DNA of 64,000 bases. It comes from Christensenella sp. UBA1214 (lineage in GTDB: Bacteria; Bacillota; Clostridia; Christensenellales; CAG-138). Location: NCBI GenBank assembly GCA_002309375.1, contig DBXK01000041.1, positions 2,001-66,000 of the forward strand, written 5' to 3'. How positions within the stretch are numbered: the stretch's first letter is position 1; each line of letters opens with the position of its first letter. This document shows positions 17,430 to 64,000 of the stretch, one piece after another. A program made the position numbers and the translations under genes. The notes beneath the pieces are model-generated. The model was given only the letters and a program-made list of their open reading frames with translations, was not told where the DNA came from and ran no database searches.

Positions 17430-17505
17430 TGGAGCTGGTGACGAGATTCGAACTCGTTACCTCGTCATTACCAATGACGTGCTCTACCTACTGAGCTACA
17501 CCAGC
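17430..17505 (-). tRNA. tRNA-Thr (anticodon GGT), CCA encoded
   Basis: The reverse complement reads GCTGGTG TA GCTCAGTAGGTAGAGC A CGTCA TTGGTAA TGACG AGGTA ACGAG TTCGAAT CTCGT CACCAGC T CCA. This is a canonical 76-nt cloverleaf. Confidence 0.9.
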
Positions 17506-49144: not shown

Positions 49145-49278
49145 TGGAAGTTGAAATTGAACGGAATCCTTAACCGTTCAGAGCCGTTTTGAAGCTCATT
49201 TCCGGCGCGGCAGGAGTTCCCATATTCGCCGCCCAAAGCGAAATTCATCGCGGCAGTAATTCACAAGGAGGAAACAGA

Positions 49279-52200
49279 ATGAAGAAGTTTCTATCAATGC
49301 TTCTGGCAGTTGTGATGGTACTCGCTCTTGCAGTGCCCGCACTGGCGGAAACCAAGGCTCAGCACGGCGATATAACTGTCAGCCAAGCTCAGCCTGAACA
49401 GCAGGCTCAGGCTGACACCGCGAAGCTCCGCGGCGCGTCTTCCTGGGATTTTGAAACCGACCCCGCGGAGTCCGGCTTCACCTACATCGACCAGGACGGT
49501 GACGGCTTTAACTGGGTCTGGCACCAGAACACCGGCACCGGCAACTACACCACCCACAGCGGCGACGGCGTCATGACCAGCGCTTCGTACGACAATGACA
49601 ACCAGGCTGCTCTGACTCCGGACAACTGGATGATCAGCCCCGTCTGCGAAGGCACTATGCTGACCTTCTGGATGTGCGGTCAGGATGCCAGCTACTGCGA
49701 AGAGTACGTCGGCGTTTACGTATCCACCGACGGCGGCGAGACCTGGAGCAACGAGATTGCGGGTTTCACCGCGACTTCGGAGATGACCCAGCAGGCAGTC
49801 AACCTTTCCGCTTACACCGGCGAGATCCAGTTCGCGCTGCGTCATTACAACTGCACCGATATGTTCTACCTCGATATCGACGATATCGAGCTGATGAGCG
49901 AGGTCCCGCAGTGCACCGTTACCTTCGTTGACGGCTATGACGGCACGACTATCGACACCATGACCGTCGAGGCCGGCACCGTGCTCAACGAGCGCGATTT
50001 CCCGACTCCGCCCACTCACGAGGGCTATGAGTTCACCGGTTGGGACTACAACGGCGCAAGCATCGCGGCGGATACCACCATCACCGCGAACTACAAGCAG
50101 GAAGGCTCCAATATTTGGGACTTCGAGACCGATCCGACCGCCCAAGGCTTCACATTCCTGGATCAGGACGGCGACGGCAACGGCTGGGGAAGGCTGAGCG
50201 ATGCAGAGTATGCTCACGAGTCGACCTATGCTATGGCTTCCGCTTCCTATTCCAGCGGTGCGCTGACTCCGGATAACTGGATGATCACCCCCGCGTTCGA
50301 AGCGGTCGGCATGAGCTTCTGGACCCGCGGCCTGGGCTATCCCGATCACGTCGGCATCTTCGTATCCACCGACGGCGGCTCCACCTGGTCCGACAAGGCG
50401 CTGCTCGAATACGACACCGACGGCACGGCATATGAAAAGAAGACCGTCGATCTTTCCGCTTATAAAGATCAGGAGATCATGGTCGCTTTCCGCCATTACA
50501 ACTGCACCGACCAGTACTACGTCTTCATCGATGATATCGAAACCTATAATGCTGCCCCGGAATATACGGTCACCTTCTATGATATCATGGATGAGTCCGT
50601 TATCGGCACCATTACCGTTGAGCAGGGCTACGTGCTGACCGAGGAAGACTTCCCCGAGGTCCCCGAGCACGAGGGCTATGTGTTCTACGGCTGGAGCTAC
50701 GACGGCACCGGCATTGCGGAAGACACCGCCATTATCGCGTTCTATTCCTATGATGGCGTCTATGAGAACACCCTTTGGGATTTTGAAGACGAGATCCACC
50801 CGATCGTAACCGGTTTCCATACCGATGACGGAAACGGCGACGGCAACACCTGGGAATGGTTCAATGCGCCTGACTACGCAAACAGCACCAGCCATATGAT
50901 GGCCTGCCTGTCCAACGGCATGGATTCGATGGATGATTGGCTCATCACGCCGAAATTCACCGGCACGCTGCTGACCTTCTACTATCGCGGCTACAGCGCG
51001 AGCTACACCGATCATCTCGAGGTTTACGTTTCCGCGGACGACGGCGCGACATGGAAGCCGGTCGGCGAGTACGAAGTGACCGGCGACACCTACACCATGG
51101 CGAGCATCGATCTCAGCGAGTATGAAGGCACCCTCCGTGTCGGATTCAATGTATCCGTCGCAGGCGGCGCATACGTCTTCATCGACGATATCGAGGTCAT
51201 GAGCGAGACTCCGACCTACACCGTAACCTTCATCGACGGCTTAACCGGCGAACCGTTCGACAGGCCTCTGACCGTTGAGATGGGCTACGTTCTTGGCGAG
51301 CGCGATTTCCCGACTCCTCCCACCCACGAGGACTACGAGTTCTTTGGTTGGGATTATGACGGCAGCCCCATCGTCGCCGATACCGAGATCACCGCGATCT
51401 ATGGTTATGCAGGCGTTTATTCCAACACGATCTGGGATTTCGAAACCGATCCTTCCGCGCAGGGCTTCCTGATGCTGGATGAGGACGGCGACGGTCATAA
51501 TTGGGAATGGCAGGAGCCCGGTTCAAGCTACGTACACAGCACCTCCCACTCCATGTATTCCGCCTCCTATGAGGGCAACGGTGTCGGCGCACTCAGCCCC
51601 GACAACTGGCTGATCACCCCGAAATTCACCGCTTCGATGCTGACCTTCTGGATCCGCAACTACAGCGGAAGCTATAAGGACCACCTCGAGGTCTACGTTT
51701 CGACCGATAACGGCGCGACCTGGAGCGAATCCGTCCTGAGCATTGATCCGGCCAATACTTTTGAACAGTACACGATCGATCTTACCGAATACGGTGAGGC
51801 AGAACTCAGGGTCGCTTTCCGCCACTGCAACTGCAGCGATAAGTACCGCTTCTATCTCGACGATATCGAGATCATCACCCTTGCTCCCACCGCCATCGTT
51901 ACCTTCGTTGACGGCGTTGACGGAAGCGAGATCAATACTCTTGAGGTCGAGACCGGCTACGTTCTGACCGAGGAAGACTTCCCGACTCCTCCCGAGCATG
52001 AAGACTGGACCTTTGTCGAGTGGGATTATGACGGCAGCTCGATCCTCCAGGATACTACCGTTACCGCGCTTTACAGCTATGATAAGCTCTTGATCTGGGA
52101 CTTCGAAACCGATCCCTTTGAACAGGGCTTCATCCTTCTCGACGCCGACGGCGACAGCAGCAACTGGCAGTGGGCGACTTCCGGCTACTCCGGCTACTTC

Positions 52201-53334
52201 CACGAGGGCATCGGCTACATGATCGATAAGTATAAGACCGATCCGGACGATTACCTGATCACCCCCGCCTTCACTTTCAACAGCGATGTCTGCCAGATTA
52301 GCTTCTGGGCGAACTCCTACAGCGCGAGCTGGCTCGAGTATCTCGGCGTATACGTATCCACCGATGACGGCGAGACCTGGAGCGAAGAGATCTGGGGACA
52401 GACCCTCACCAACATCACTCCTCAGGAATTCACCATTGACCTCAGCGCTTATGCAGACGACACGATCCGCGTTGCGTTCAGGCACTACAATTCCCCCGAT
52501 AAGTTCTATATCTTCCTCGACTACATCACCCTGACCGACGCTACCCCCGTTCCTCTTGCGGAACCGCATAACGTCTACTTCAAGGTCGGCAATGCAACCC
52601 TCGCGACCCTCGAGAACGTCCTCGAGATCACCGAAGAGGATCTGCCCGAAGGACCTGCCTGGTACGGCTTCACCTTCACCGGCTGGGATATGACCGTTGA
52701 GGAGATCAACGCTGCTCTCGCCGAGGGCGACGTCACCGTCAACGGTATCTTCGTCCCCGCGGAGAATGCGTTCACCGTCACCATCATCTACGGCGAAGAA
52801 GTGACCGAGAAGACCTTCACCGAGAGCCGCTGGCTCACCGTCAAGGCGAAGGCTCAGAACAAGGCCGGTCAGTACTTCCAGTATTGGACCATGGACGACG
52901 TCATCATCAGCTACAGCCCGCGTGCAAACGTCCGTGTTGTCGATACCTGCACCCTTGAGGCGCACTACGCTGACGAGCCCATCGAGGCGACCGGTGTTGC
53001 GCAGCTCATCAAGGCGACCTTCGCAGGCGGCAGGGAGACCTTCGTAGTTTACCTCGCTGCACCGAACGGCGCGACCATGACCGACGCAGGTCTGCTCGCA
53101 TCGCCCGCGACCGAGTATGATCCCGAGGACGGCGAGCTGACTCCGGACAACGCGAAGTTCTATAAGCACTGCAACATCAACGATCCTTCGCAGCCCGCGA
53201 CCTACACCTGGATCAAGACCAATGTCCAGGAGGGCGACGTCTGGTACATCCGTCCGTTCGTCACCTATGAGCTCGACGGCGAGACCTTCACCGTCTACGG
53301 CGAGACCACCGCTGTCAAAGCCGGCAACGAATAA
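49279..53334 (+). CDS. Large secreted protein: 5 x (cleaved-adhesin / choice-of-anchor-J-like domain + Listeria-Bacteroides repeat) plus C-terminal domains
   Basis: AAGGAGG SD and signal peptide MKKFLSMLLAVVMVLALAVPALA. Five modules start with WDFE(T/D)DP...GF...D(Q/E/A)DGDG..W and contain LTPDNW(M/L)I(S/T)P, VYVSTDGG.TWS, RHYNCTD and IDDIE. Each is followed by a TVTF(V/Y)DG...EGYEFTGWDY-type repeat. Confidence 0.85.
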   Translation: MKKFLSMLLAVVMVLALAVPALAETKAQHGDITVSQAQPEQQAQADTAKLRGASSWDFETDPAESGFTYIDQDGDGFNWVWHQNTGTGNYTTHSGDGVMTSASYDNDNQAALTPDNWMISPVCEGTMLTFWMCGQDASYCEEYVGVYVSTDGGETWSNEIAGFTATSEMTQQAVNLSAYTGEIQFALRHYNCTDMFYLDIDDIELMSEVPQCTVTFVDGYDGTTIDTMTVEAGTVLNERDFPTPPTHEGYEFTGWDYNGASIAADTTITANYKQEGSNIWDFETDPTAQGFTFLDQDGDGNGWGRLSDAEYAHESTYAMASASYSSGALTPDNWMITPAFEAVGMSFWTRGLGYPDHVGIFVSTDGGSTWSDKALLEYDTDGTAYEKKTVDLSAYKDQEIMVAFRHYNCTDQYYVFIDDIETYNAAPEYTVTFYDIMDESVIGTITVEQGYVLTEEDFPEVPEHEGYVFYGWSYDGTGIAEDTAIIAFYSYDGVYENTLWDFEDEIHPIVTGFHTDDGNGDGNTWEWFNAPDYANSTSHMMACLSNGMDSMDDWLITPKFTGTLLTFYYRGYSASYTDHLEVYVSADDGATWKPVGEYEVTGDTYTMASIDLSEYEGTLRVGFNVSVAGGAYVFIDDIEVMSETPTYTVTFIDGLTGEPFDRPLTVEMGYVLGERDFPTPPTHEDYEFFGWDYDGSPIVADTEITAIYGYAGVYSNTIWDFETDPSAQGFLMLDEDGDGHNWEWQEPGSSYVHSTSHSMYSASYEGNGVGALSPDNWLITPKFTASMLTFWIRNYSGSYKDHLEVYVSTDNGATWSESVLSIDPANTFEQYTIDLTEYGEAELRVAFRHCNCSDKYRFYLDDIEIITLAPTAIVTFVDGVDGSEINTLEVETGYVLTEEDFPTPPEHEDWTFVEWDYDGSSILQDTTVTALYSYDKLLIWDFETDPFEQGFILLDADGDSSNWQWATSGYSGYFHEGIGYMIDKYKTDPDDYLITPAFTFNSDVCQISFWANSYSASWLEYLGVYVSTDDGETWSEEIWGQTLTNITPQEFTIDLSAYADDTIRVAFRHYNSPDKFYIFLDYITLTDATPVPLAEPHNVYFKVGNATLATLENVLEITEEDLPEGPAWYGFTFTGWDMTVEEINAALAEGDVTVNGIFVPAENAFTVTIIYGEEVTEKTFTESRWLTVKAKAQNKAGQYFQYWTMDDVIISYSPRANVRVVDTCTLEAHYADEPIEATGVAQLIKATFAGGRETFVVYLAAPNGATMTDAGLLASPATEYDPEDGELTPDNAKFYKHCNINDPSQPATYTWIKTNVQEGDVWYIRPFVTYELDGETFTVYGETTAVKAGNE
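49444..52760 (+). repeat. Five tandem coding modules of about 660 nt
   Basis: The WDFE codons recur at 49444, 50116, 50776, 51433 and 52096 (periods 672, 660, 657 and 663 nt). The copies are diverged at DNA level. Confidence 0.85.
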
Positions 53335-55047: not shown

Positions 55048-55536
55048 TCAGAAGACCATCATCGCGTGAGCTGCGAGACCGCTGCGGACATTTCGCAGTG
55101 GTTCACCGATCAGACCGCCCGGTGTGGTGGAGCAGTCGGCGGGAAGCTCCTTGCCCGATTTATTTTCCCGGACGTTGACGCCGTACAGCTTGACCGTTGA
55201 ATCATTATTGACGTAGCCGCCGCCGTCGGTCTCCCGGCCGCCCTTGACGCAGCCGCTGCCGACGCTGTCGATAATGATCAGCGCCGCGCCGTTCTTCGCC
55301 TCAAAGACGTGCTTGGAGCTGCCCGAGGAATCGCGCTTCAGGTCAACAGTATGACCGGCAAGGCCGATGATGTCTATATCAAGCAGCGCGATATCAACGA
55401 GGTCTTTGCGGGCGAACTCAAGCGCTGCCTCGGCCTTCGTGAAGCCGTGCGCCTCGTCTACACCGTCGATCTCGCGGCACATGGCAAGCGTGTCCTCCAT
55501 CAGCAGCCTTTCATCGTCTACGCATATCGCCTTCAT
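55048..55536 (-). CDS. Chimeric/atypical ORF: N-terminal fragment of a response-regulator receiver domain fused to a Gly-rich beta-helix-like segment; no DNA-binding output domain
   Basis: MKAICVDDERLLMEDTLAMCREIDGVDEAHGFTKAEAALEFARKDLVDIALLDIDI is a receiver N-terminus running up to the phospho-acceptor Asp region. The remainder (NGAALIIIDSVGSGCVKGGRETDGGGYVNNDSTVKLYGVNV) does not look like a receiver or an output domain. Codon usage looks coding. Confidence 0.5.
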   Translation of the reverse strand: MKAICVDDERLLMEDTLAMCREIDGVDEAHGFTKAEAALEFARKDLVDIALLDIDIIGLAGHTVDLKRDSSGSSKHVFEAKNGAALIIIDSVGSGCVKGGRETDGGGYVNNDSTVKLYGVNVRENKSGKELPADCSTTPGGLIGEPLRNVRSGLAAHAMMVF

Positions 55537-55679
55537 TTGCTCGCCTCCTTTTCGGGTACCAGCATGGTTAAGACAGTCCCCTCGCCGATAACGCTCTCTA
55601 TCTTAAAGCTGCCGCCGCACATGCTTGCAAAGATGCTTAATGACCACAAAATTGATGAGTAAAAAGCAGGGTGCTCAGT
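55533..55679 (-). pseudogene. 5'-truncated histidine kinase: only the last ~30-45 codons (end of HATPase domain) remain
   Basis: The minus strand reads ...LSIFASMCGGSFKIESVIGEGTVLTMLVPEKEASK*, with the stop overlapping the downstream ATG (ATGA). The frame is closed by TAA at 55680-55682, and the sequence upstream is AT-rich non-coding. Confidence 0.6.
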
Positions 55680-55703
55680 TTATTCAATAGGGGTGTTCAA
55701 AAA

Positions 55704-55764
55704 TAAACGATTACCCCGATTTGCTGCACAAATAAACGATTACACACCACAAAGTAAACGATTA
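55704..55764. repeat. Three direct copies of TAAACGATTA (extended AARTAAACGATTA)
   Basis: Perfect 10-mers at 55704-55713, 55733-55742 and 55755-55764, with spacings of 29 and 22 bp start to start. Confidence 0.9.
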
Positions 55765-55862
55765 GCACAGATAAATGCAAAAAAGCCTCACTCGGTAACC
55801 TCCGGGAGGGGCTTTATACTACATATCGACGCCTATAATTTGCTATATCTGCTAAATTTTTC

Positions 55863-55912
55863 ACACAAAAATACCCTTCATACCGAATTGTATCAAAATT
55901 GGTATGAAGGGT
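55863..55912 (-). terminator. Strong rho-independent terminator directly after the tRNA-like element
   Basis: 12-bp perfect inverted repeat ACCCTTCATACC / GGTATGAAGGGT with a 16-nt loop. On the minus strand it is followed by ATTTTTGTGTG. Confidence 0.8.
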
Positions 55913-56014
55913 TGGCGTACCTGCCGGGATTCGAACCCGGGACCTACAGAGTCGGAGCAGCTTGTTCTGCTTAGCTCAAAAGCCCAGATATTGCTTGATT
56001 TTTCAAGCAGGTAC
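55913..56014 (-). ncRNA. tRNA-Arg(CCG)-derived element. The 3' 45 nt (55913-55957) are canonical; D arm and 5' anticodon stem are replaced
   Basis: Minus strand 55957->55913 reads CTCCGAC TCTGT AGGTC CCGGG TTCGAAT CCCGG CAGGTAC G CCA. GTACCTGC at 56014-56007 is perfectly complementary (8 bp) to the 3' acceptor strand. The 50 nt in between form two unrelated hairpins. Confidence 0.5.
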
Positions 56015-56053
56015 TGGTTTTTTGAAGCTCCGCGGCAGTGCTTCATTATCCGC

Positions 56054-56082
56054 ATTATCCGCGATATCAACATTAGTCTCAA
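56054..56082 (-). promoter_or_regulatory. Candidate promoter TTGAGA-17-GATAAT for the tRNA-like element
   Basis: The minus strand reads TTGAGA ctaatgttgatatcgcg GATAAT. GCGGATAAT is tandemly duplicated. The -10 lies about 40 nt upstream of the GTACCTG 5' end. Confidence 0.35.
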
Positions 56083-56465
56083 GAGTTGTGTAGCATAAAT
56101 GTAGTATCTGCAAGAACTGCCTATGGATATCGTCACATCATTATCGCAAACTATCTATACTTCTTTCGGCTAATGCCATCATAAGCTATGATTCGAGTTG
56201 TTGTACTGAAAAGACTTTTGATAATTAACGCATATTGACTCTTTCGAGTATTATTCTTGATTTAGCAGCATTATGGAATAAGCGAAGGGTTTGGCTTTAT
56301 TTCACTTGCGGTCATTGCTGTGCTATGATGGTTTTGCCTGACAATAGTAAACGCCGAAATATATTTTCAATTATTTGTCCCCTTTTGACATTCCGGATTG
56401 TTAATGTATACAAAGGGGAAAGACAGACATCCAACATCGGAGGTGAACACAGGGGGTCTGCTTCG

Positions 56466-56494
56466 TTGACAATTGCCGTTTGAACTGCTATAGT
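56466..56494 (+). promoter_or_regulatory. Near-consensus promoter TTGACA-17-TATAGT
   Basis: TTGACA attgccgtttgaactgc TATAGT lies about 118 nt upstream of ATG 56613. Confidence 0.6.
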
Positions 56495-56612
56495 ATTTTT
56501 GCAGTTAACAGCAGGGCCCCTCTCCGCCAACGATATCTCGGCAAAATATTATGATTGCCGGATCAATCGCCGAAAAACAACCGCAGTTTACTGTTACGAG
56601 GAGGTTTAAATC

Positions 56613-58355
56613 ATGAAAAGAATAACTGCACTGTTTCTGCTATTTGCCCTTATTCTTCCGATAACGGGCAAAATTGCCGCTGCAGAATCCGTTTGGGATT
56701 CGCAAAAAGTTGAAGAAGTCGCAACCGAATATCTGAGGGAAGCGGCCTATTCGCAGTATCTCTATGAAACCCACGATCTCGATCGTTATACGATTGAAAG
56801 CGTTCCCACAGACCAGAAAGCGATTCTTGCTGAAAAAACAGCGGGATATGCGGCGGTTCGCGAAAACCGAGAAATTGTTCCGTATCGTGAAACCGAGATA
56901 GCTACCGGCAGCCTGAACGCTTTGGTCAGCAATCTAGAGTTGAATAAAGACATGGTTGCTTTCTATGCATATCTCGGAGAAAGCAGCAATACTTCATATG
57001 ATTTCTTCACTGAATCATATGAAATACTCGAAACCGATCTGGAAGGCGACTTCGCTTTTATTGACCTTTATGAAAATTTGGATTTCAAGTACAGTGACGT
57101 GGACTTTACTTCTTCCGCATCTCCCCATTACTTTATTTCCTTGGTAAAGTTCAATGGCGAATGGTTTATCATGGCTGTTGAATCGGATGATTCGATGTAT
57201 GAGGTTTATAGAGATTCAGAATTCGATTTGCAACAGCATATCGAGAATTTTGACAACGCCCAAGATGCAGACATTGGAATTGAATTATCTGAGGAGCACG
57301 AATCACGAGATATCGAATCCTATGACGTTACGATGGATCGTTTGTATGATCGTTCAAATGCTGCAAACTACGCATTAACATATTGCAAAAAAGGCGACAT
57401 GGGAAATGGAAGTTATTCATCTTGGAAAAACGACAACTTTCATTATGGCAGCAATAATTGCATGAGATTCGTTTCACAATGTCTATGGGCTGGTTTTGGC
57501 GGAAGCAATGACACCGCAAGCATTCAGGCTTGTAAGGCAATGGATCGCCAGGACGAAAACGGCACAGACAAATTAGTCTGGTTTGGACGGAATGTGCAAT
57601 CGGGACTAACAACAGAATCTCATTCATGGATCAGCGTAAGTGTGTTTGATTTATATATTCACCATAAATACTTGGACAGTGCAGGCAATCCTCAGACAGC
57701 GAGTTCCAGTGAAGACCGTATGCGCTGCTCTACTTATGAAGTTGCTAGAACTCAAAACCAGATGCTCTCTGGAAGTTCAAATACAAACAATTATAAGTTG
57801 TTAGGTGCCGCGGGTTTGATTATAAAACCTAACCAGAGCATTTATTCCCATGCTATCCTTATAACACAGGTAAAAGACAGCAGCGGAGTGGCCACCAGAG
57901 ATACAGTTTATTTCACGGCCTACAATGGTTGTTACAAAAACTATAAGCTATCAGCTGTTTATTATAAAGGTCAGAGTTCGAATACGGGATATGAGCTTGA
58001 AGTTGTAATGCCGGGATATTTGCAGAACGGCAATCCATCAGGCGACAACTATTTCTATGGAGAGCTCATGCCTACACTCACAACCGGAAGCAGTAAGGTT
58101 GTTACTGCTAAGGCAAGAGATACGGCTTCTACAATGTGCATGTATATCTATAAACCTAATGCAAGCACAGCGAGCTATTCATTTTATGGGAGCAACTGCT
58201 CAACGCTTCAAAGCTCGTCAATAACTTTTAACCAAACCGGATTATGGAGAGTTGTGATTAGAAGCAGTAACAGCGATCCAAATCCTCTTGCCACGTACAC
58301 ATTTACCATCAGGGTTGCATCATCAACTGAAGCAGGTAATGATCCCGAACCTTAA
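56613..58355 (+). CDS. Secreted putative amidase-domain protein (Amidase_6-like cysteine hydrolase), low G+C
   Basis: GAGGAGG SD. Signal MKRITALFLLFALILPITGKIAAA. YDRSNAANYALTYC...GSNNCMRFVSQCLWAGFGG matches the remembered 'putative amidase domain' pattern (Y.R..A..YA..Y...DC.NFVSQCL.AGG). Later candidate catalytic His at SIYSHAILITQV. Confidence 0.65.
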   Translation: MKRITALFLLFALILPITGKIAAAESVWDSQKVEEVATEYLREAAYSQYLYETHDLDRYTIESVPTDQKAILAEKTAGYAAVRENREIVPYRETEIATGSLNALVSNLELNKDMVAFYAYLGESSNTSYDFFTESYEILETDLEGDFAFIDLYENLDFKYSDVDFTSSASPHYFISLVKFNGEWFIMAVESDDSMYEVYRDSEFDLQQHIENFDNAQDADIGIELSEEHESRDIESYDVTMDRLYDRSNAANYALTYCKKGDMGNGSYSSWKNDNFHYGSNNCMRFVSQCLWAGFGGSNDTASIQACKAMDRQDENGTDKLVWFGRNVQSGLTTESHSWISVSVFDLYIHHKYLDSAGNPQTASSSEDRMRCSTYEVARTQNQMLSGSSNTNNYKLLGAAGLIIKPNQSIYSHAILITQVKDSSGVATRDTVYFTAYNGCYKNYKLSAVYYKGQSSNTGYELEVVMPGYLQNGNPSGDNYFYGELMPTLTTGSSKVVTAKARDTASTMCMYIYKPNASTASYSFYGSNCSTLQSSSITFNQTGLWRVVIRSSNSDPNPLATYTFTIRVASSTEAGNDPEP

Positions 58356-58396
58356 ATGACACCCATATCTGGATATTAGCAAGGAGGAATAAAACA

Positions 58397-59383
58397 ATGA
58401 GAAGAATTTCCATTAGAGCGAGTGCGCTTATGCTCACTTTTATCCTGTTGCTGTCGGCCTGCGCCTGCGTCGGAAACGGCTCGGAGAACGGGCAGCAAAC
58501 GGCGGATAACAGCGCCGCACCGGCAACGCAGGAGCCTTCAGCCGAACCGACCGAAGCGCCGATGCCGGAACAGACCGCCGAGCCCACGCCGGAGCCTGCG
58601 GAAAAACCGACGCCGGGACCGACAGCAATGCCTTTGGACGGTCCCTCAACGGAAGAGGAGAAGCAGTATGCCGAAGCGGCATATCAGTTCATTGAGCAGA
58701 TTGGCAGGATCCATAATAAGCATTTCTCGCCGGAGAATACAACCGTCAGCGAATTCTATTGGCAGCCGGAGTTGCTTAGCGTGATTTTTCAGGCAGAAGA
58801 GCCCGGTCAGTCAATAAGAATGCTCGGCAAACCCGACGGCAACGGAGGCTATACTTTCTCAATGAAGGATATGACCATGGTAATGATCAACGATTTCCGT
58901 GAGCAGGAGTGGCTCGACTCATATTCGGAGGATATTTGGGCGGCCTATCATGAGAGTTTGGGCGAGGCACGCTTTGTCATAACGCCCGAGGATATCGCGG
59001 CGACGGGCTGCACGGCGACAGAAGGCGAGGAATATCTGCTTGCAGTCGGCCGCTGCTGGCAGCAAAAGTACGCCGAATTCTTCATGAACCTGCCCGAAAA
59101 CTATCCGGGCTATTGCTATGAAATGCTGCCGCTCGACTGCACTGTCGATCACTACTATGCGGATCAGAATAAAGTGCAGTTCGTCGCGGGCTTTGCATCC
59201 CGCCCGGCGGATCTGAGGGCAATAGCATATCTCTACTTCGAGATCGACGAGGGTGGAGGCTTTGCCGACGAAAGCTATCCGCCGGAGATCTACGGCTGGC
59301 TTGTGACCTACGGTGGCACCATACTCGAGCAGCAGGCTGACGGAAGCTGGGTCGGCACGACGAGCTGCCATAACTTCGGCTGA
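58397..59383 (+). CDS. Lipoprotein of unknown function (paralog family A, copy 1)
   Basis: AAGGAGG SD 41 nt after the amidase stop. Lipobox LLLSAC. PE/PT-rich linker. C-terminal Cys-containing domain with no family recognised. Confidence 0.7.
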   Translation: MRRISIRASALMLTFILLLSACACVGNGSENGQQTADNSAAPATQEPSAEPTEAPMPEQTAEPTPEPAEKPTPGPTAMPLDGPSTEEEKQYAEAAYQFIEQIGRIHNKHFSPENTTVSEFYWQPELLSVIFQAEEPGQSIRMLGKPDGNGGYTFSMKDMTMVMINDFREQEWLDSYSEDIWAAYHESLGEARFVITPEDIAATGCTATEGEEYLLAVGRCWQQKYAEFFMNLPENYPGYCYEMLPLDCTVDHYYADQNKVQFVAGFASRPADLRAIAYLYFEIDEGGGFADESYPPEIYGWLVTYGGTILEQQADGSWVGTTSCHNFG

Positions 59384-59456
59384 TTAGCCAAGGCCTGCGG
59401 CGAGCTCGGCATGAAGACTGGCAAGGACTTTATTGAGCATCGATATGCGCTTTGAA

Positions 59457-59495
59457 CAAATGCGCCGCCTCAAGGCGGCGCATTTGTTGTTTTCA
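59457..59495 (+). terminator. Rho-independent terminator
   Basis: CAAATGCGCCGCC-tcaa-GGCGGCGCATTTG followed by TTGTTTTC. Confidence 0.8.
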
Positions 59496-60130
59496 AAAAG
59501 CGTTGGTTCCTGATACCTTTGATTGACTCTTTTATGATACCATAGATGAATCCTTCCTTAAAAGGAAAATACACTTTGCTTGCAGAAAAAACGGCACATG
59601 CTCCTCATCTATCGGCTTTGGTATCGAGGACGGTAAGCCCTATAATACTGTTTGCGCAGGCGGTTGCGGCGGCACCCCCAAGCACCTGTAAGTCTGCTCG
59701 AAAATCTAGATGTTGTTTCCACGCTTGAACAGCTATCCGATGCCACTTACAGCTTGAAAGATACCTGCTGAGGTGAGTTGCCTGCAATGGCTATGCGCAA
59801 GGTGTTGTAAAAAAAGTCTATGCTAATCACCGCTATTAAAACAAAAACAGGTAGACTCTTATATTCGCGGAAGGAGAGGCGTAAGGTGCGAAGCATGGCT
59901 TCACCTCATCGAAGAAGAGCACCTAGTTTTGGCTCGTTTTCCTCCAATATAAGGCCTGAATAAGTCGTTGCAGAGTAAGACTCAACGCACGGAAGAGCTT
60001 CCTTTTCATCACCTGCGTCGTTCTGGAGACGGTTTACAATACTAAGATGCCTCAATGCATCAGTGCCGCTATCGGAGATATTGCCTACGATCCGGAGACA
60101 TAACAACATTATCAGAGAGGAGTGTTCAAA

Positions 60131-61075
60131 ATGAAAAGTATCAAAACAACATCTATCACCGTCGCGGTATCGATCCTTCTTTCGCTTCTGATGATCGCGG
60201 CTGTCGCAGCCTGCAGCGCAGTGCGAGAGGAACCGACTCCCGCGCCTGACGATCAGCAAGCGCAGGCGACCACGGAACCGACCGAAGCGCCGACGGCCGA
60301 GCCGACAGCCGAGCCGACGCAGGAGCCGGAGGAGACCCCGGATCCGCGGATCCCGGATGAGGAATGGTTTGTTGACCGATCCTGGCAGTATGCGGAGCTT
60401 GCAAATCAGACTTTCGGCTATTGCTTCTCAAAGGATCAAAGGGAAGTCGATAAAGCCGGAAGCATAAGCGATTGGTACATCGTCCGTTTCAAGACCGATG
60501 AGAATGACGAGCTGATGTGCGTTTTTGATTATTCATCGGATGACGGGGAATGGCAGCTGAACGAGCGAACTATCCGAACCGATCTGTCTGAAGAGGCGCT
60601 CGAAACGCTTTCCGGTCAGTACAGACCGTGGAATGAATGCGCAGAAGAAGTCCCCTTGACCGGCCTTGAAATTCGTGTAACTGCCGATGAGCTGGAAGCT
60701 GCAGGCTGTCATCTGAGCGGCGGCGAATTGACGGAAGAGGATCTTGCGTCAATATCCAGATACAGAGCGGAGCTGTTGGCGGCGCAGTATGTTGACTGCC
60801 CGGAGGATAATATGTTCCGGTGCTATGAAGCAGACGTATCGGAACTTGGGCCGGTAACAAGAAGCGGTGATGAGTATTTGCAAGGCTTCCTTCTGATCGT
60901 CCGCCCGGTCGAGCCGCGGTGCTTCAGCCTGCAGTACGCCGACGTGGGCTGCAATATCCTCGGCGACGAATGGGGAGAAGATGCAGGCTGGTTCAGTATT
61001 TATTTTCAGGTCAGCACCGTTGTTGAGGCTGACGGCAGCTTTACGCTGACAACTTGGTGTACAAGCGGCGATTAA
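60131..61075 (+). CDS. Lipoprotein of unknown function (paralog family A, copy 2)
   Basis: GAGAGGAG SD before ATG 60131. Lipobox AAVAAC. TEPTEAPTAEPTAEPTQEPEE linker. C-terminal domain alignable with copy 1 (VTADELEAAGC / ITPEDIAATGC; CPEDNMFRCYE / LPENYPGYCYE; EADGSFTLTTWC / QADGSWVGTTSC). Confidence 0.7.
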   Translation: MKSIKTTSITVAVSILLSLLMIAAVAACSAVREEPTPAPDDQQAQATTEPTEAPTAEPTAEPTQEPEETPDPRIPDEEWFVDRSWQYAELANQTFGYCFSKDQREVDKAGSISDWYIVRFKTDENDELMCVFDYSSDDGEWQLNERTIRTDLSEEALETLSGQYRPWNECAEEVPLTGLEIRVTADELEAAGCHLSGGELTEEDLASISRYRAELLAAQYVDCPEDNMFRCYEADVSELGPVTRSGDEYLQGFLLIVRPVEPRCFSLQYADVGCNILGDEWGEDAGWFSIYFQVSTVVEADGSFTLTTWCTSGD

Positions 61076-61122
61076 AGCCGCGCCTCGTTTCCTCCTTCAT
61101 TTTTGATCAATAACTGGCACAT

Positions 61123-61148
61123 GCGCCGCCGCAAGGCGGCGCTTTTGT
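61123..61148 (+). terminator. Rho-independent terminator, same stem core as 59457..59495
   Basis: GCGCCGCC-gcaa-GGCGGCGC followed by TTTTGTC. Confidence 0.8.
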
Positions 61149-61348
61149 CTAACCTCGCAAAAATATATTTATTTTCTTTTGTCTCCGATTGCGGTTCTCG
61201 ATTGTAATAGTATTAAAAAGCGGTAAAGCGATCTGTGAAAGGCGGTAGAAACGGAAATGAAAGATGAACTGATCTATACCGGGCGATACAGGGATCGCGA
61301 TGAGGAACTGATCGACGAGTGTCTATAGGAAAGTCTTGATAAAGAATA

Positions 61349-61370
61349 GGCTGTGCTTTGAAGCACAGCC
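61349..61370. terminator. Hairpin downstream of the minus-strand lipoprotein gene
   Basis: GGCTGTGC-tttgaa-GCACAGCC, with a weak T-tail on the minus strand. Confidence 0.5.
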
Positions 61371-61411
61371 CACAAAGACTATCTGGTATTGTGTTGATTT
61401 TGCAGCTTGTA

Positions 61412-62515
61412 TTACATAGTTATCTTCCAGACGATATATGCATCCTTAAGTGAAGCGGCAGCATAGACAGATCCATCTGCGCCGAGCTGATAGATAATAC
61501 AGGGATTCCAACGGTCGTCGTCACCATATGGTATCTCAACTTCGGATGCGATCTGGCCATCTGCAGCGATCTTCAAAAGCTTCTCGGTCTCTCCGATTTT
61601 ATTCAAATACAGATTGCCTTCCGTATCCCTTCCAATCAGAATGTAACCGATATCCGGCAGTATGAGTTCCTTGCCGTTGTTCAGCAGCAAAGTCGTTTTC
61701 GTGCCGTTCGCTTCTGGCAGCATCCGGCATATTGTCTCGCTTTTATGCCAGATCCTGTACATATCGTTGCTCAACCGATAGAACTCATATTCCTCAATGT
61801 AATTGCCTTCCCTGCCCATTGTTTCGCAGACTATAAAAGCCGGATCTCCGTTATCATAATGCTGTGCGCCTACTGCGCAGTTATACAGAAACGCCGCAAA
61901 ATTGCCTATATAGGGCGTTGTTGTATCATAAATCGTTTCTCCGGTCTCTAAGCTGAACGCTCCGATCTCTTTGAACAAAACACTGCCTAACGCCACAGTA
62001 AAATTGCTTCCGTTATGATCTATGCCATCGCATACGACCCTCCTAACAAAGCGACCGTTTTTAAAGACCTTGAGATCATAGATTGTCGGCGCGAGATGCC
62101 CGACGATTATCGTGTCGCCGTCGAGAGCGAAAATCTCAGGTCCGGTATAAAAACCGTTATCGATGCAGTAGCGAACTGCGTTGTTATCTGCGTCTTCCGG
62201 CAAATAAGGATTATTCTCTCCCGCATAACAGGGCACAAGCCTCAACACTTCTTCAGCACATTTATCAAAACACAATACAACCGTGACCGGCTCTGCGGTC
62301 TGCACCGTCGTCGGCTCAGCTGTCGCATCAACGACCGGTTCGATCGTAGGGTTTGGTGTAGTTGATTCCGCTACAACGGAATCTGCGGTCGGTCCCTCAT
62401 GAGCGACTTCCGTAGGTGCTGATGAAGCATTTACACCGATACCGGCAGTGTCTTTGCATGCTGTAATTGAGCAAAGAAACGCTATCAGTATGAAAAGAGC
62501 GATGGTTCGTCTCAT
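61412..62515 (-). CDS. Lipoprotein of unknown function, low G+C
   Basis: Lipobox LCSITAC and a Thr/Pro/Glu linker. The beta-rich C-terminal part has DGxxY-type strands (TEGNLYLNKIG, GADGSVYAAAS). Confidence 0.65.
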   Translation of the reverse strand: MRRTIALFILIAFLCSITACKDTAGIGVNASSAPTEVAHEGPTADSVVAESTTPNPTIEPVVDATAEPTTVQTAEPVTVVLCFDKCAEEVLRLVPCYAGENNPYLPEDADNNAVRYCIDNGFYTGPEIFALDGDTIIVGHLAPTIYDLKVFKNGRFVRRVVCDGIDHNGSNFTVALGSVLFKEIGAFSLETGETIYDTTTPYIGNFAAFLYNCAVGAQHYDNGDPAFIVCETMGREGNYIEEYEFYRLSNDMYRIWHKSETICRMLPEANGTKTTLLLNNGKELILPDIGYILIGRDTEGNLYLNKIGETEKLLKIAADGQIASEVEIPYGDDDRWNPCIIYQLGADGSVYAAASLKDAYIVWKITM

Positions 62516-62578
62516 ATAGAACTCCTTTCATAAATTAAGTAATGTAATTAACAGGTCTTGTTGCTCTAAAGCACGCAA

Positions 62579-64000
62579 TCACGGTCCCATTAAAACCGGC
62601 ATAAGGGGATTCATTGTTTCATAGTTGCAAACAGAACACCGATAAATCGAGCCGAGATTAACAAACGAATGATAACCAATGTCTTTTCTTTTTCCACATT
62701 TATTGCATTCGTGATAGTGGTAAATCTCCGTATGACCATAAGCCAATCCGTAAAAATGCGATTCATTGAATGAATAACCGCAAATGGAGCAGGTACAGGT
62801 ATGATTTGAGCCGTTGTCAGTATATGTGTTTTGACATCCACTAATAGCGCAGGAATATGGACTTTTCATTTTAAATCCCTTCAGGTATGAAAAACTATAA
62901 GCCTGCTCAACAACTTTACCGGCTCCGCTAGAAGCATGAATTATGTTTACATAGGTGGTACTGTTCCAACTAACGTACAGTACAATATGATGAGCCGCAC
63001 TATCTGCTCTAACCATGAAGTCCATTGGCTTCATATTAGCAAAATGTGCCGCTGTTTCTGTACCAGTAGTTGAAACGGTTCCAATATCATAGCCATTCCC
63101 ATTCATTGCAAAACTATCAGTAGTCCAATAGTTGCTGGACGGAGCATTATAAGCATAGCATGCCAATCCGGAACAGTCAAGTCCGGTAGAACCGTAACAG
63201 GCCGGGGATTGCAGGTTGCCTGCGGTGTAGTACTTTCCCAAACCATCACCGTAGTAAATCTGGTTTAGTTTGCTATCAAAATCGCTTGGTCCATTATGCA
63301 TTCCCCGACAGTAAGGAATTCCGGTCATTGCCTTATTAGTCGTGACATTTCGTTCCTCAGGAGGCAACAAAATCTGATAAGAATTGCCGTCAGGTCCAGT
63401 ATAAGTCCTTTTGTAACCGTTTTGAGTCGGATTAAACGTCCATGAGTGGGTCGCACAGTTGCGTGCTCTTGCAAGGACTTGCGATCGCGTTAGAGAAGTA
63501 ATTGGTACTCCTTTAGTGCTTGCGTTGGATTTACTGTTACTGCAGAGAGCATATGCTTCTTTTGCTATAGCATCCATATTTGAATCATAGGAAGCACAAA
63601 GATTAGGCCTGGTGATATAAATGCCTTCATTAAGACATTGCATCATGTAAATAGAGCCGTCATCTGACACATATATTTCATCCTCGGGATAAGCATATAC
63701 ATCGTCTTCAGCAACAATGCACCCAACCAGCTCTCCGTTACCGTTGAATACTCTGATAGTTTTCTCAAACATTATAACGGGAACCTCAGGAACATATTCA
63801 TATGCAATGATTACAATCTGCTCTTCAGATCCGCGAACAAACTGTGCTATGGTATTATATCCAAGCTCGATTGATACAGGCCTGTCTGTTACACCTTTAA
63901 CTTCGTATGCCGAACCGCTAACCGCACAGCATGATATCTGACCGATGGGTTCCCAGTCGTGCGTTTTTCTGTCAAATGCATAGGTCTGAAGGTCGTGGCT
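62579..64000 (-). CDS. NlpC/P60 cysteine peptidase with C-terminal Cys/His-rich (zinc-ribbon-like) tail; 5' end outside the window
   Basis: GLDCSGLACYAY catalytic Cys motif and AAHHIVLYV...IIHAS His region. Tail is CAISGC...HTCTCSICG...HYHECNKCG...YRCSVCNY. I translated the frame upstream of the listed ATG 63772 and found no stop up to base 64000, so the gene probably starts beyond the window. Confidence 0.75.
   Translation of the reverse strand, partial: SHDLQTYAFDRKTHDWEPIGQISCCAVSGSAYEVKGVTDRPVSIELGYNTIAQFVRGSEEQIVIIAYEYVPEVPVIMFEKTIRVFNGNGELVGCIVAEDDVYAYPEDEIYVSDDGSIYMMQCLNEGIYITRPNLCASYDSNMDAIAKEAYALCSNSKSNASTKGVPITSLTRSQVLARARNCATHSWTFNPTQNGYKRTYTGPDGNSYQILLPPEERNVTTNKAMTGIPYCRGMHNGPSDFDSKLNQIYYGDGLGKYYTAGNLQSPACYGSTGLDCSGLACYAYNAPSSNYWTTDSFAMNGNGYDIGTVSTTGTETAAHFANMKPMDFMVRADSAAHHIVLYVSWNSTTYVNIIHASSGAGKVVEQAYSFSYLKGFKMKSPYSCAISGCQNTYTDNGSNHTCTCSICGYSFNESHFYGLAYGHTEIYHYHECNKCGKRKDIGYHSFVNLGSIYRCSVCNYETMNPLMPVLMGP

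What the first reader, a model, noticed from the sequence alone, without database searches (positions are those of the whole stretch)
55913..56014. tRNA-Arg(CCG)-derived element with intact 3' half, closed 8-bp acceptor stem, own promoter and terminator, but no D arm
Minus strand 55957->55913 reads CTCCGAC / TCTGT / AGGTC / CCGGG-TTCGAAT-CCCGG / CAGGTAC / G / CCA. That is a textbook anticodon loop (U33, anticodon CCG, A37), 3' anticodon-stem strand, 5-nt variable loop, T arm, 3' acceptor strand, discriminator and encoded CCA. The matching 5' anticodon-stem strand (ACAGA) and any D arm are absent. Instead about 50 nt containing two hairpins (CTTGA-AAAA-TCAAG and AGCAG-AACAAG-CTGCT) separate it from GTACCTGC (56014-56007). 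That 8-mer pairs perfectly with the 3' acceptor strand, which is unlikely by chance at this distance. A TTGAGA-17-GATAAT promoter lies upstream, and a 12-bp perfect terminator hairpin starts 1 nt after CCA. There are two readings. It may be an attachment-site remnant left by integration or excision at a tRNA-Arg gene. Or it may be an expressed tRNA-derived RNA that keeps the acceptor/T minihelix (a substrate for RNase P, the CCA enzyme and possibly ArgRS) with a replaced body.
Basis: seen in the sequence. Interest (0 to 1): 0.65.

Follow-up and report, generated by a model that had tools for sequence, protein, structure and literature searches.

The report
Leftover piece of a tRNA-Arg gene
This is the broken-off 3' half of an arginine tRNA gene, joined at the anticodon loop to unrelated DNA at a site where foreign DNA repeatedly inserts; it is an ordinary recombination scar, not a new kind of RNA gene.

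Summary
The sequence is as described. Minus strand 55957->55913 is a perfect anticodon-loop-to-CCA half of tRNA-Arg(CCG). GTACCTG lies 50 nt upstream, with a sigma-70-like promoter before it and a 12-bp hairpin plus T-run after it. ARAGORN and Rfam do not call it a tRNA.

GTACCTG is the normal 5' end of tRNA-Arg in many Clostridia. Intact tRNA-Arg(CCG) genes in three related rumen MAG loci match the 3' half at 44/45. Two of them also share about 220 nt downstream (terminator plus three 13-nt repeats). Homology stops exactly at the first base of the anticodon loop.

The nearest relative has the same downstream flank but a different breakpoint, in the T loop. One MAG has that same T-loop junction downstream of an intact tRNA. 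Another has a partial tRNA-Arg 5' copy, starting GTACCTG, upstream of a full gene.

DNA to the right has 39-47% GC in three of its five long ORFs, against about 57% elsewhere, and its one surveyed gene is very rare. No elongated version of this tRNA occurs in 185,579 species genomes.

Best reading: a displaced tDNA fragment at an integration hot spot. It is possibly transcribed, but there is no evidence of function. Interest is low.

The parts
55913..55957 (-). 3' half of tRNA-Arg(CCG): anticodon loop, 3' anticodon-stem strand, variable loop, T arm, 3' acceptor strand, G73, CCA. This is the tDNA fragment.
   Evidence: Exact sequence. It matches intact tRNA-Arg(CCG) genes in L044, L066 and L070 at 44/45; the only difference is A43->T. 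BLAST homology to L044/L066 ends at 55957.
55958..56007 (-). 50-nt non-tRNA body that replaces the D arm and the 5' anticodon-stem strand. It contains two small hairpins (56007-55994 and 55971-55956).
   Evidence: It has no significant similarity to a tRNA 5' half (p about 0.37). The five bases just 5' of the loop match the tRNA stem strand at 0 of 5 positions.
56008..56014 (-). GTACCTG, identical to the native 5' acceptor strand of tRNA-Arg in this clade. Probably a relic of a tRNA-Arg 5' end.
   Evidence: All 73 matches, in 72 stretches from diverse genomes, start with GTACCTG (the pattern fixed it) and are 76-77-nt sequences read by eye as tRNA-Arg (ARAGORN confirmed three). L066 has a partial tRNA-Arg 5' copy starting GTACCTG 72 nt upstream of a full gene. 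Chance P is about 0.005.
56054..56082 (-). Sigma-70-like promoter TTGAGA-17-GATAAT. The -10 region is duplicated (GCGGATAAT x2, 56062-56045).
   Evidence: 10/12 match. It aligns 19/23 with the promoter interval upstream of the tRNA genes in L044, but that score is not significant on its own.
55866..55912 (-). Terminator-like hairpin of the tRNA-Arg(CCG) gene module (12 perfect bp, then a T-run).
   Evidence: I10. It is nearly invariant in L044, L066 and L070 directly after CCA or after the 3' remnant. It carries substitutions in the sister strain.
55690..55865 (-). Conserved downstream flank that travels with the tRNA 3' end. It includes three direct repeats of AAATAAACGATTA (plus-strand 55701-55713, 55730-55742, 55752-55764).
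   Evidence: 84-86% identity to L044 and L066 over 55690-55957. The repeats occur 3 times against 0.04 expected and are conserved in L044 and L066.
56100..64000 (.). Low-GC, rare-gene DNA on the 5' side of the fragment. It is the candidate island interior, and its far end lies outside the window.
   Evidence: GC is 0.39-0.47 across the amidase_6 gene and the last two ORFs, against about 0.57 for the other 56 kb. The amidase_6 protein has only 8 homologues at E<=1e-20 among 5.8 billion proteins. No integrase or phage hits were found.

Best explanation
The element is a non-functional remnant of a tRNA-Arg(CCG) gene. Recombination at the anticodon loop joined the gene's 3' 45 nt, with its terminator-like hairpin and about 220 nt of downstream flank, to unrelated DNA. 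This is the classic 'A-type' tDNA attachment junction used by tyrosine integrases.

The low-GC DNA on the fragment's 5' side (window >56014) is most likely the inserted element. In that case a regenerated tRNA-Arg(CCG) should lie at its far end, beyond the window. The upstream GTACCTG is a relic of a tRNA-Arg 5' end, from a tandem partial copy as seen in a relative. It is not a stem selected to close a new RNA. Because a promoter-like site and the terminator-like hairpin flank it, the scar may still be transcribed into a CCA-ending, cloverleaf-like RNA. It cannot decode, since it has no anticodon stem and no D arm.

- **Shown:** the identity of the fragment, the exact breakpoint, the variable breakpoints in relatives, the composition shift, and the lack of conservation.
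- **Inferred:** integrase involvement, which side holds the island, and the origin of the 7-mer.
For: 1. **Cognate gene.** Intact 77-nt tRNA-Arg(CCG) genes in L044, L066 and L070 match the 3' half at 44/45 and start with GTACCTG.
2. **Sharp breakpoint.** Window 55690-55957 is 84-86% identical to L044 and L066. The match ends at 55957, the first base of the anticodon loop; the five bases beyond it match at 0 of 5.
3. **Other breakpoints at the same tDNA.**
   - The sister strain (neighbour protein 96% identical) has the same flank, but its junction is in the T loop: CGAAAAAG|GAATCCCGGCAGGTACGCCA.
   - L070 has an intact tRNA, then about 170 nt, then the identical T-loop junction and the flank.
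   - L066 has a 48-nt 5' tRNA-Arg copy upstream of the full gene.
   - L044 has a truncated tRNA-Arg(CCU)-like fragment upstream.
4. **Module behaviour.** L044 and L066 share only the tRNA and flank (93.5% over 308 nt) plus a second 49-nt tRNA-internal match to L066's partial copy, and nothing else in 8 kb.
5. **Foreign composition.** The genes to the right are 39-47% GC against 57%, and the amidase_6 gene is very rare.
6. **Assembly behaviour.** Independent rumen assemblies break inside the fragment with a 30-nt overlap at 55912-55941, as expected for a repeated tDNA segment.
7. **Not a tRNA.** Neither ARAGORN nor Rfam calls it one.
8. **Not found elsewhere.** No elongated version with this acceptor occurs in 185,579 species genomes. 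All 73 matches were 76-77 nt, although the pattern allowed the 70-nt gap of this element.
9. **Known signature.** A tDNA plus a displaced 3' fragment, with anticodon-centred or T-region breakpoints, is the standard island signature (PMC4383910). Such fragments are common (PMC9897764).
Against: - No integrase gene and no intact tRNA-Arg were found in the 8 kb to the right, nor in the 1.2 kb beyond the window end.
- The bases 5' of the loop do not mirror the 3' stem strand, as an integrase core site often does.
- In L044 and L066 the flank is followed by mobile-element-like gene fragments: exonuclease, invertase and SNF2 helicase. The 3' half plus flank could therefore be the island-borne side (attL-type) rather than the displaced chromosomal side.
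- The window's promoter interval resembles L044's (19/23), which hints that the upstream DNA may be native rather than inserted.
- An exact 7-nt acceptor complement has a chance probability of about 0.005, and the relic explanation for it rests on analogy with L066.
Confidence: 0.75

Rival explanations
1. A tRNA operon that decayed in place. The promoter and upstream DNA are native. An upstream tRNA fragment and the 5' half of tRNA-Arg(CCG) were scrambled by local deletions and insertions, for example a deletion running from position 8 of a regenerated tRNA through an island to within 50 nt of the displaced fragment. The breakpoint itself was not made by site-specific recombination.
For: - A colinear alignment of the window's 143 nt upstream of the loop with L044's promoter + tRNA fragment + spacer + 5' half scores 18.5, against 6.7 +/- 2.5 for shuffles.
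- The promoter intervals match at 19/23.
- The motif 'GCGG...AGCTTCA' follows the -10 element in both loci.
- A spacer ending in ATAT precedes the tRNA position in the window, L044 and L066.
Against: - One of 69 unrelated tRNA-Arg upstream regions (L042, Verrucomicrobiota) scores just as high, at 19.0, so the colinearity is not established.
- Similarity of the body to a tRNA 5' half is not significant.
- Uniform decay cannot explain 44/45 identity on one side of the anticodon loop and no detectable identity on the other.
- The upstream genes are compositionally foreign.
Confidence: 0.14
2. A functional tRNA-like small RNA. It would be transcribed from its own promoter, processed by RNase P and carry the encoded CCA. 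The acceptor/T-arm minihelix would be kept, and the body replaced, to serve as a decoy, regulator or enzyme substrate.
For: - The promoter-like site and the terminator-like hairpin bracket it.
- The predicted fold is a four-way junction, with acceptor pairs 1-5 at >0.99 and four of the five T-stem pairs at 0.82-0.85 (the closing pair 0.26), z = -3.4.
- The 5' strand is unlikely by chance.
- The terminator stem is intact here but carries substitutions in the sister strain.
Against: - It is not conserved. The nearest relative has a T-loop junction that destroys the T arm.
- No elongated homologue exists in the genome, metagenome or viral scans.
- No Rfam family comes near threshold.
- The fold and z-score are largely inherited from the tRNA half.
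- From established knowledge of the E. coli enzyme, arginyl-tRNA synthetase needs A20 in the D loop, which is absent here.
- Every component has a simpler historical explanation.
Confidence: 0.06
3. An unusual but genuine decoding tRNA, for example one with a long variable arm or an intron, that the first reader mis-folded.
For: With a lowered threshold and introns allowed, ARAGORN fits the exact 102 nt as 'tRNA-Phe(GAA)' with a 9-nt anticodon-loop intron.
Against: - There is no call at default settings, or with either relaxation alone.
- Rfam's tRNA model gives no listed hit.
- The fit needs a poor D stem and a short anticodon-loop intron. From established knowledge, bacteria are not known to splice such introns.
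- The 3' half is plainly tRNA-Arg(CCG) by homology.
Confidence: 0.01

Closest known systems
Displaced tDNA 3' fragments at the ends of genomic islands and prophages integrated in tRNA genes (Islander signature, PMC4383910; also Reiter 1989 and Williams 2002, as cited there)
   Same: - The fragment runs from the anticodon loop to the 3' end of the cognate tRNA and is followed by its terminator-like hairpin and conserved downstream flank.
- The breakpoint is at the 'A' (anticodon-centred) sublocation. Relatives show the alternative T-region breakpoint.
- Compositionally foreign DNA lies on the 5' side.
   Different: - The partner intact tRNA and an integrase were not seen, because they are outside the window or lost.
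- The arm next to the fragment carries a 7-nt copy of the tRNA's 5' acceptor strand, so the scar can fold like a closed cloverleaf.
tRNA gene fragments mistaken for tRNA genes (van der Gulik et al. 2023, PMC9897764)
   Same: A partial tRNA gene left by insertion of a mobile element. It has an identifiable T arm and acceptor strand but a defective remainder.
   Different: Standard detectors do not call this one. It was noticed by eye.
tRNA-like RNAs that keep an acceptor/T-arm mimic (tmRNA tRNA-like domain, bacterial YrlA, eukaryotic mascRNA)
   Same: A predicted acceptor stem plus T arm, with a CCA or CCA-acceptor end and a non-tRNA body.
   Different: - Rfam scores are far below threshold: tmRNA 11 against 47 bits, YrlA 14.6 against 69, mascRNA 18.7 against 42.5.
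- There is no tag reading frame.
- There is no conservation in relatives.

Membership tests
Canonical tRNA (Rfam RF00005; ARAGORN) | A cloverleaf with a D arm and a 5-bp anticodon stem closing a 7-nt loop, scoring above the detector threshold | tested here: not met
   ARAGORN default finds nothing. Rfam lists no tRNA hit at the gathering score or at E<=10. The only fit is a forced one, with lowered threshold plus an intron.
tDNA 3' fragment at an integrase att junction | Identity to the 3' part of a cognate tRNA gene, running to its 3' end | tested here: met
   44/45 identity to tRNA-Arg(CCG) of L044, L066 and L070. The identity continues into the shared terminator and flank.
tDNA 3' fragment at an integrase att junction | The breakpoint lies at a known crossover sublocation (anticodon loop or T-loop region) | tested here: met
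   Homology ends at 55957, the first base of the anticodon loop. The sister strain and L070 break in the T loop. The sublocations are as listed in PMC4383910.
tDNA 3' fragment at an integrase att junction | An intact cognate tDNA upstream of the fragment, in the same orientation, on the same replicon | not testable with these tools
   There is none within 56014-64000, nor in the 1.2 kb beyond the window end (L087). The rest of the genome is not available.
tDNA 3' fragment at an integrase att junction | A tyrosine integrase gene inside the interval | tested here: inconclusive
   The five long ORFs to the right gave no integrase hit in Pfam, PHROGs or NCBIfam. The interval may extend beyond the window.
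tDNA 3' fragment at an integrase att junction | The interval is accessory or foreign DNA | tested here: met
   GC is 0.39-0.47 in three of the five long ORFs there, against 0.57 elsewhere. The amidase_6 protein has 8 homologues at E<=1e-20 in 5.8 billion proteins, and its closest relative has a different upstream context.
tmRNA | A tRNA-like domain plus a tag reading frame and pseudoknots | tested here: not met
   ARAGORN's tmRNA search finds nothing, even when relaxed. The Rfam tmRNA hit is 11 bits against 47 and covers the T arm only.
YrlA / Y RNA-like tRNA mimics | A match to the RF02553 covariance model (a tRNA-like domain plus a Ro-binding stem) | tested here: not met
   14.6 bits against a gathering score of 69.

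The most novel reading that the evidence does not exclude
The recombination scar has been taken over as a gene. It would be transcribed from the upstream promoter, cut by RNase P at G56014 and end in its encoded CCA. The result would be a stable ~102-nt RNA with an acceptor/T-arm minihelix and a new body, acting as a decoy or regulator for tRNA-binding enzymes.
Probability: 0.05. Interest if true: 0.55.

Novelty: new member of a known kind. Interest (0 to 1): 0.15.

Why it matters
It mostly matters as a marker. The fragment marks a tRNA-Arg(CCG) integration hot spot and one edge of a low-GC accessory region in an uncultured rumen Clostridia genome. It also shows how a tDNA scar can look like a neatly closed tRNA-like gene.

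If the scar were shown to be expressed and processed, it would be a natural example of a tRNA minihelix RNA born from an att junction. Nothing here supports that.

Tried and rejected
- **Known RNA families.** Rfam at the gathering threshold and at E<=10 gave only sub-threshold noise: CRISPR-DR21, mascRNA, SpF41, YrlA and the tmRNA T arm.
- **Annotated collections.** BLAST of 801 nt around the element against E. coli genomes, phages and plasmids found no match.
- **Homologues of the elongated element.**
  - The genome scan with a gapped acceptor/T-arm pattern returned only normal 76-77-nt tRNA-Arg genes.
  - The metagenome scan for the T43 variant found nothing.
  - The scan for 3' end plus terminator returned only the Tb.RUG.186 contigs again.
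  - Four viral scans gave nothing, or one chance hit.
- **Is the 50-nt body a decayed D arm or 5' half?** The similarity is not significant.
- **Is the whole upstream region colinear with L044?** It looked significant against shuffles, but an unrelated control locus scored as high, so I did not rely on it.
- **A27-U43 'allele' idea.** L066's partial copy has ACAGA and the window has TCTGT. Every intact tRNA-Arg(CCG) has TCAGA/TCTGA, so these are probably independent substitutions in dead fragments.
- **Extending past the window end.** One protein is not on record. The other gave 1.2 kb more sequence with no tRNA.
- **Overlapping ORFs.** The ORFs across the element have no Pfam support.
- **Which side is the island?** Unresolved. 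GC and gene rarity point right. Mobile-element gene fragments after the flank in L044 and L066 point left.

Full report
**Observation.**
GTACCTG is at 56014-56008, followed by C at 56007. The two small hairpins, the TTGAGA-17-GATAAT promoter-like site (56082-56054, 10/12) and a 12-bp perfect hairpin with a T-run directly after CCA (55912-55873) are all present.

Three details need correcting. The eighth 'acceptor pair' competes with the closing pair of the T stem. The second hairpin overlaps the first two bases of the anticodon loop. The AT-rich region gives many promoter-like matches (9 against 2.8 expected), so that match is weak on its own.

ARAGORN and Rfam do not recognise a tRNA here. 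ARAGORN fits the 102 nt only with a lowered threshold and an allowed anticodon-loop intron, as a 'tRNA-Phe(GAA)' with a 9-nt intron, which is not credible for a bacterium. The RNA would fold into a four-way junction (-36.8 kcal/mol, z = -3.4), with acceptor pairs 1-5 at >0.99 and four of the five T-stem pairs at 0.82-0.85.

**What the pieces are.**
I scanned 185,579 species genomes for GTACCTG...GGTTCGAATCC...CAGGTACGCCA. This returned 73 matches in 72 stretches, all 76-77 nt. By their anticodon loops as I read them they are tRNA-Arg genes with anticodons UCU, ACG, CCG or GCG; ARAGORN confirmed only L044, L066 and L070. They come from Clostridia, Lentisphaerae, Saccharibacteria and others. So GTACCTG/CAGGTAC with G73 and an encoded CCA is the ordinary acceptor stem of tRNA-Arg in these lineages.

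Three loci carry an intact tRNA-Arg(CCG) that matches the window's 45-nt half at 44/45; the only difference is A43 to T. They are L044 (a sheep-rumen Clostridia MAG) and L066 and L070 (Bacillota MAG Tb.RUG.186). The pattern allowed the 70-nt gap of the window's element, yet no elongated version was found anywhere.

The window itself comes from a rumen Clostridia genome. It has dockerin and Big_2 proteins, and identical contigs occur in cow-rumen runs.

**The breakpoint.**
Window 55690-55957 aligns at 84-86% identity with L044 and L066. The aligned stretch covers the 3' half, the terminator hairpin and about 220 nt of flank holding three direct repeats of AAATAAACGATTA. The alignment ends at 55957, the first base of the anticodon loop, and the five bases beyond it match at 0 of 5. 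Upstream of that point I found no robust similarity to any related locus.

L044 and L066 share only the tRNA and flank (93.5% over 308 nt) plus a second 49-nt tRNA-internal match to L066's partial copy, and nothing else across 8 kb. The tRNA 3' end and its flank therefore behave as one module, with variable DNA on both sides.

**A hot spot with several scars.**
- The nearest relative I could find (neighbouring proteins 96-98% identical) has the same flank but a junction in the T loop, CGAAAAAG|GAATCCCGGCAGGTACGCCA. The 102-nt element is therefore not conserved even there.
- L070 has the same T-loop junction about 170 nt downstream of an intact tRNA-Arg(CCG) with a different terminator. That is a textbook tDNA plus displaced fragment with a tiny interval.
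- L066 has a 48-nt 5' copy of tRNA-Arg(CCG) starting with GTACCTG, then 24 nt, then the full gene.
- L044 has a truncated tRNA-Arg(CCU)-like fragment in the same position.
- Independent de Bruijn assemblies of two rumen samples break inside the fragment with a 30-nt overlap (55912-55941), as expected where a tDNA segment is repeated.

These are the signatures described for integrase-mediated insertion in tRNA genes. The original tDNA is split, a copy carried by the element restores it, and a displaced 3' fragment is left behind. The breakpoints are centred on the anticodon loop or in the T region (PMC4383910). Such fragments are common and are often mistaken for genes (PMC9897764).

**Surroundings.**
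To the right of the element, the amidase_6 gene and the last two ORFs are 39-47% GC, against about 57% for the other 56 kb. The amidase_6 protein has only eight homologues at E<=1e-20 in 5.8 billion proteins. Its closest relative (72% identity) has a different upstream context, with homology starting at window 56450. No integrase or phage function was detected in these 8 kb. A contig reaching 1.2 kb past the window end has no tRNA.

To the left, the flank abuts gene fragments. About 30 codons of a histidine-kinase C-terminus are followed by a 162-aa ORF in which only the first ~60 residues resemble response regulators. This side has also been rearranged.

In L044 and L066 the flank is followed by decayed mobile-element genes: an exonuclease fragment, an invertase fragment and an SNF2 helicase. 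I therefore cannot say with certainty which of two cases holds. The 45 nt plus flank may be the displaced chromosomal end, with the island to the right; the GC and gene rarity favour this. Or it may be the copy brought in by an element on the left that has since been deleted.

**The 5' GTACCTG.**
Its chance probability within 150 nt is about 0.005, so it needs an explanation. The simplest is a relic of a tRNA-Arg 5' end. L066 shows that partial 5' copies beginning with this heptamer do sit just upstream of tRNA-Arg(CCG) at this locus. A colinear alignment of the window's upstream 143 nt with L044's promoter, tRNA fragment, spacer and 5' half beats all 1000 shuffles. However, one of 69 unrelated control loci scores as high, so I treat in-place descent of the upstream region as possible but unproven.

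**Mechanism and verdict.**
Most likely (about 0.75), this is an inert recombination scar: a tDNA 3' fragment joined at the anticodon loop to non-tRNA DNA. It may be transcribed, because a promoter-like site and the terminator-like hairpin flank it. If so, the RNA would fold into an acceptor/T-arm minihelix with CCA. It has no anticodon stem and no D arm. From established knowledge of the E. coli enzyme, arginyl-tRNA synthetase needs A20 in the D loop, which is missing here.

A functional tRNA-like RNA is not excluded, but it has no support. There is no conservation in the sister lineage, no homologues in any collection searched, and no known family near threshold. I put it at about 0.05. The kind of feature is well known and this is a new instance of it, so interest is low.

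Noticed in passing
window 55690-55865 (repeats at 55701-55713, 55730-55742, 55752-55764, plus strand): About 220 nt downstream of the tRNA fragment is conserved at roughly 85% in L044 and L066, even though everything around it differs. It holds three direct AAATAAACGATTA repeats spaced 22-29 nt apart (3 found, 0.04 expected) and a conserved small hairpin (GCCCCTCC...GAGGCTTTTTT). These could be integrase arm-type sites or operator sites. In L070 one repeat copy sits 1.5 kb away, just after a hydrolase gene.
   Followed up: partly
window 55048-55629, minus strand: The 162-aa ORF is a chimera. Only its first ~60 residues match response-regulator receiver domains (full-length relatives are about 265 aa). 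It is preceded by about 30 codons of a histidine-kinase C-terminus. These are gene fragments, and the sister strain shares them.
   Followed up: partly
L066 3413-3485 and L044 4858-4925 (minus strands): Truncated tRNA copies sit between the promoter and the intact tRNA-Arg(CCG). L066 has a 48-nt tRNA-Arg(CCG) 5' fragment with an A27/A43 mismatch. L044 has a tRNA-Arg(CCU)-like fragment broken in the T loop.
   Followed up: partly
window 56045-56062, minus strand: A tandem duplication, GCGGATAAT GCGGATAAT, gives two possible -10 elements upstream of the element.
   Followed up: no
window 58397-59383 and 60122-61075, plus strand: Two paralogous putative lipoproteins with Pro/Thr/Glu-rich repeat linkers (repeats at 58544-58633 and 60275-60340). 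Each is followed by a near-identical GC-rich terminator palindrome (59457-59487 and 61118-61148).
   Followed up: no
window 62579-64000, minus strand: The 397-aa ORF is the C-terminal part of a 641-aa protein called in a rumen contig (L087). The exact 397-aa product is not on record, so the window copy may carry an in-frame stop or a frameshift near 63772.
   Followed up: no
window 49189-53334, plus strand: A 1381-aa ORF, the counterpart of the 1351-aa Cleaved_Adhesin gene called on identical contig L073, has extensive internal repeats. The sister strain has a longer version (1571 aa), so the repeat number varies.
   Followed up: no
window 17430-17505, minus strand: An ordinary tRNA-Thr(GGU), the only tRNA detected in the window (72.7 bits).
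   Followed up: yes
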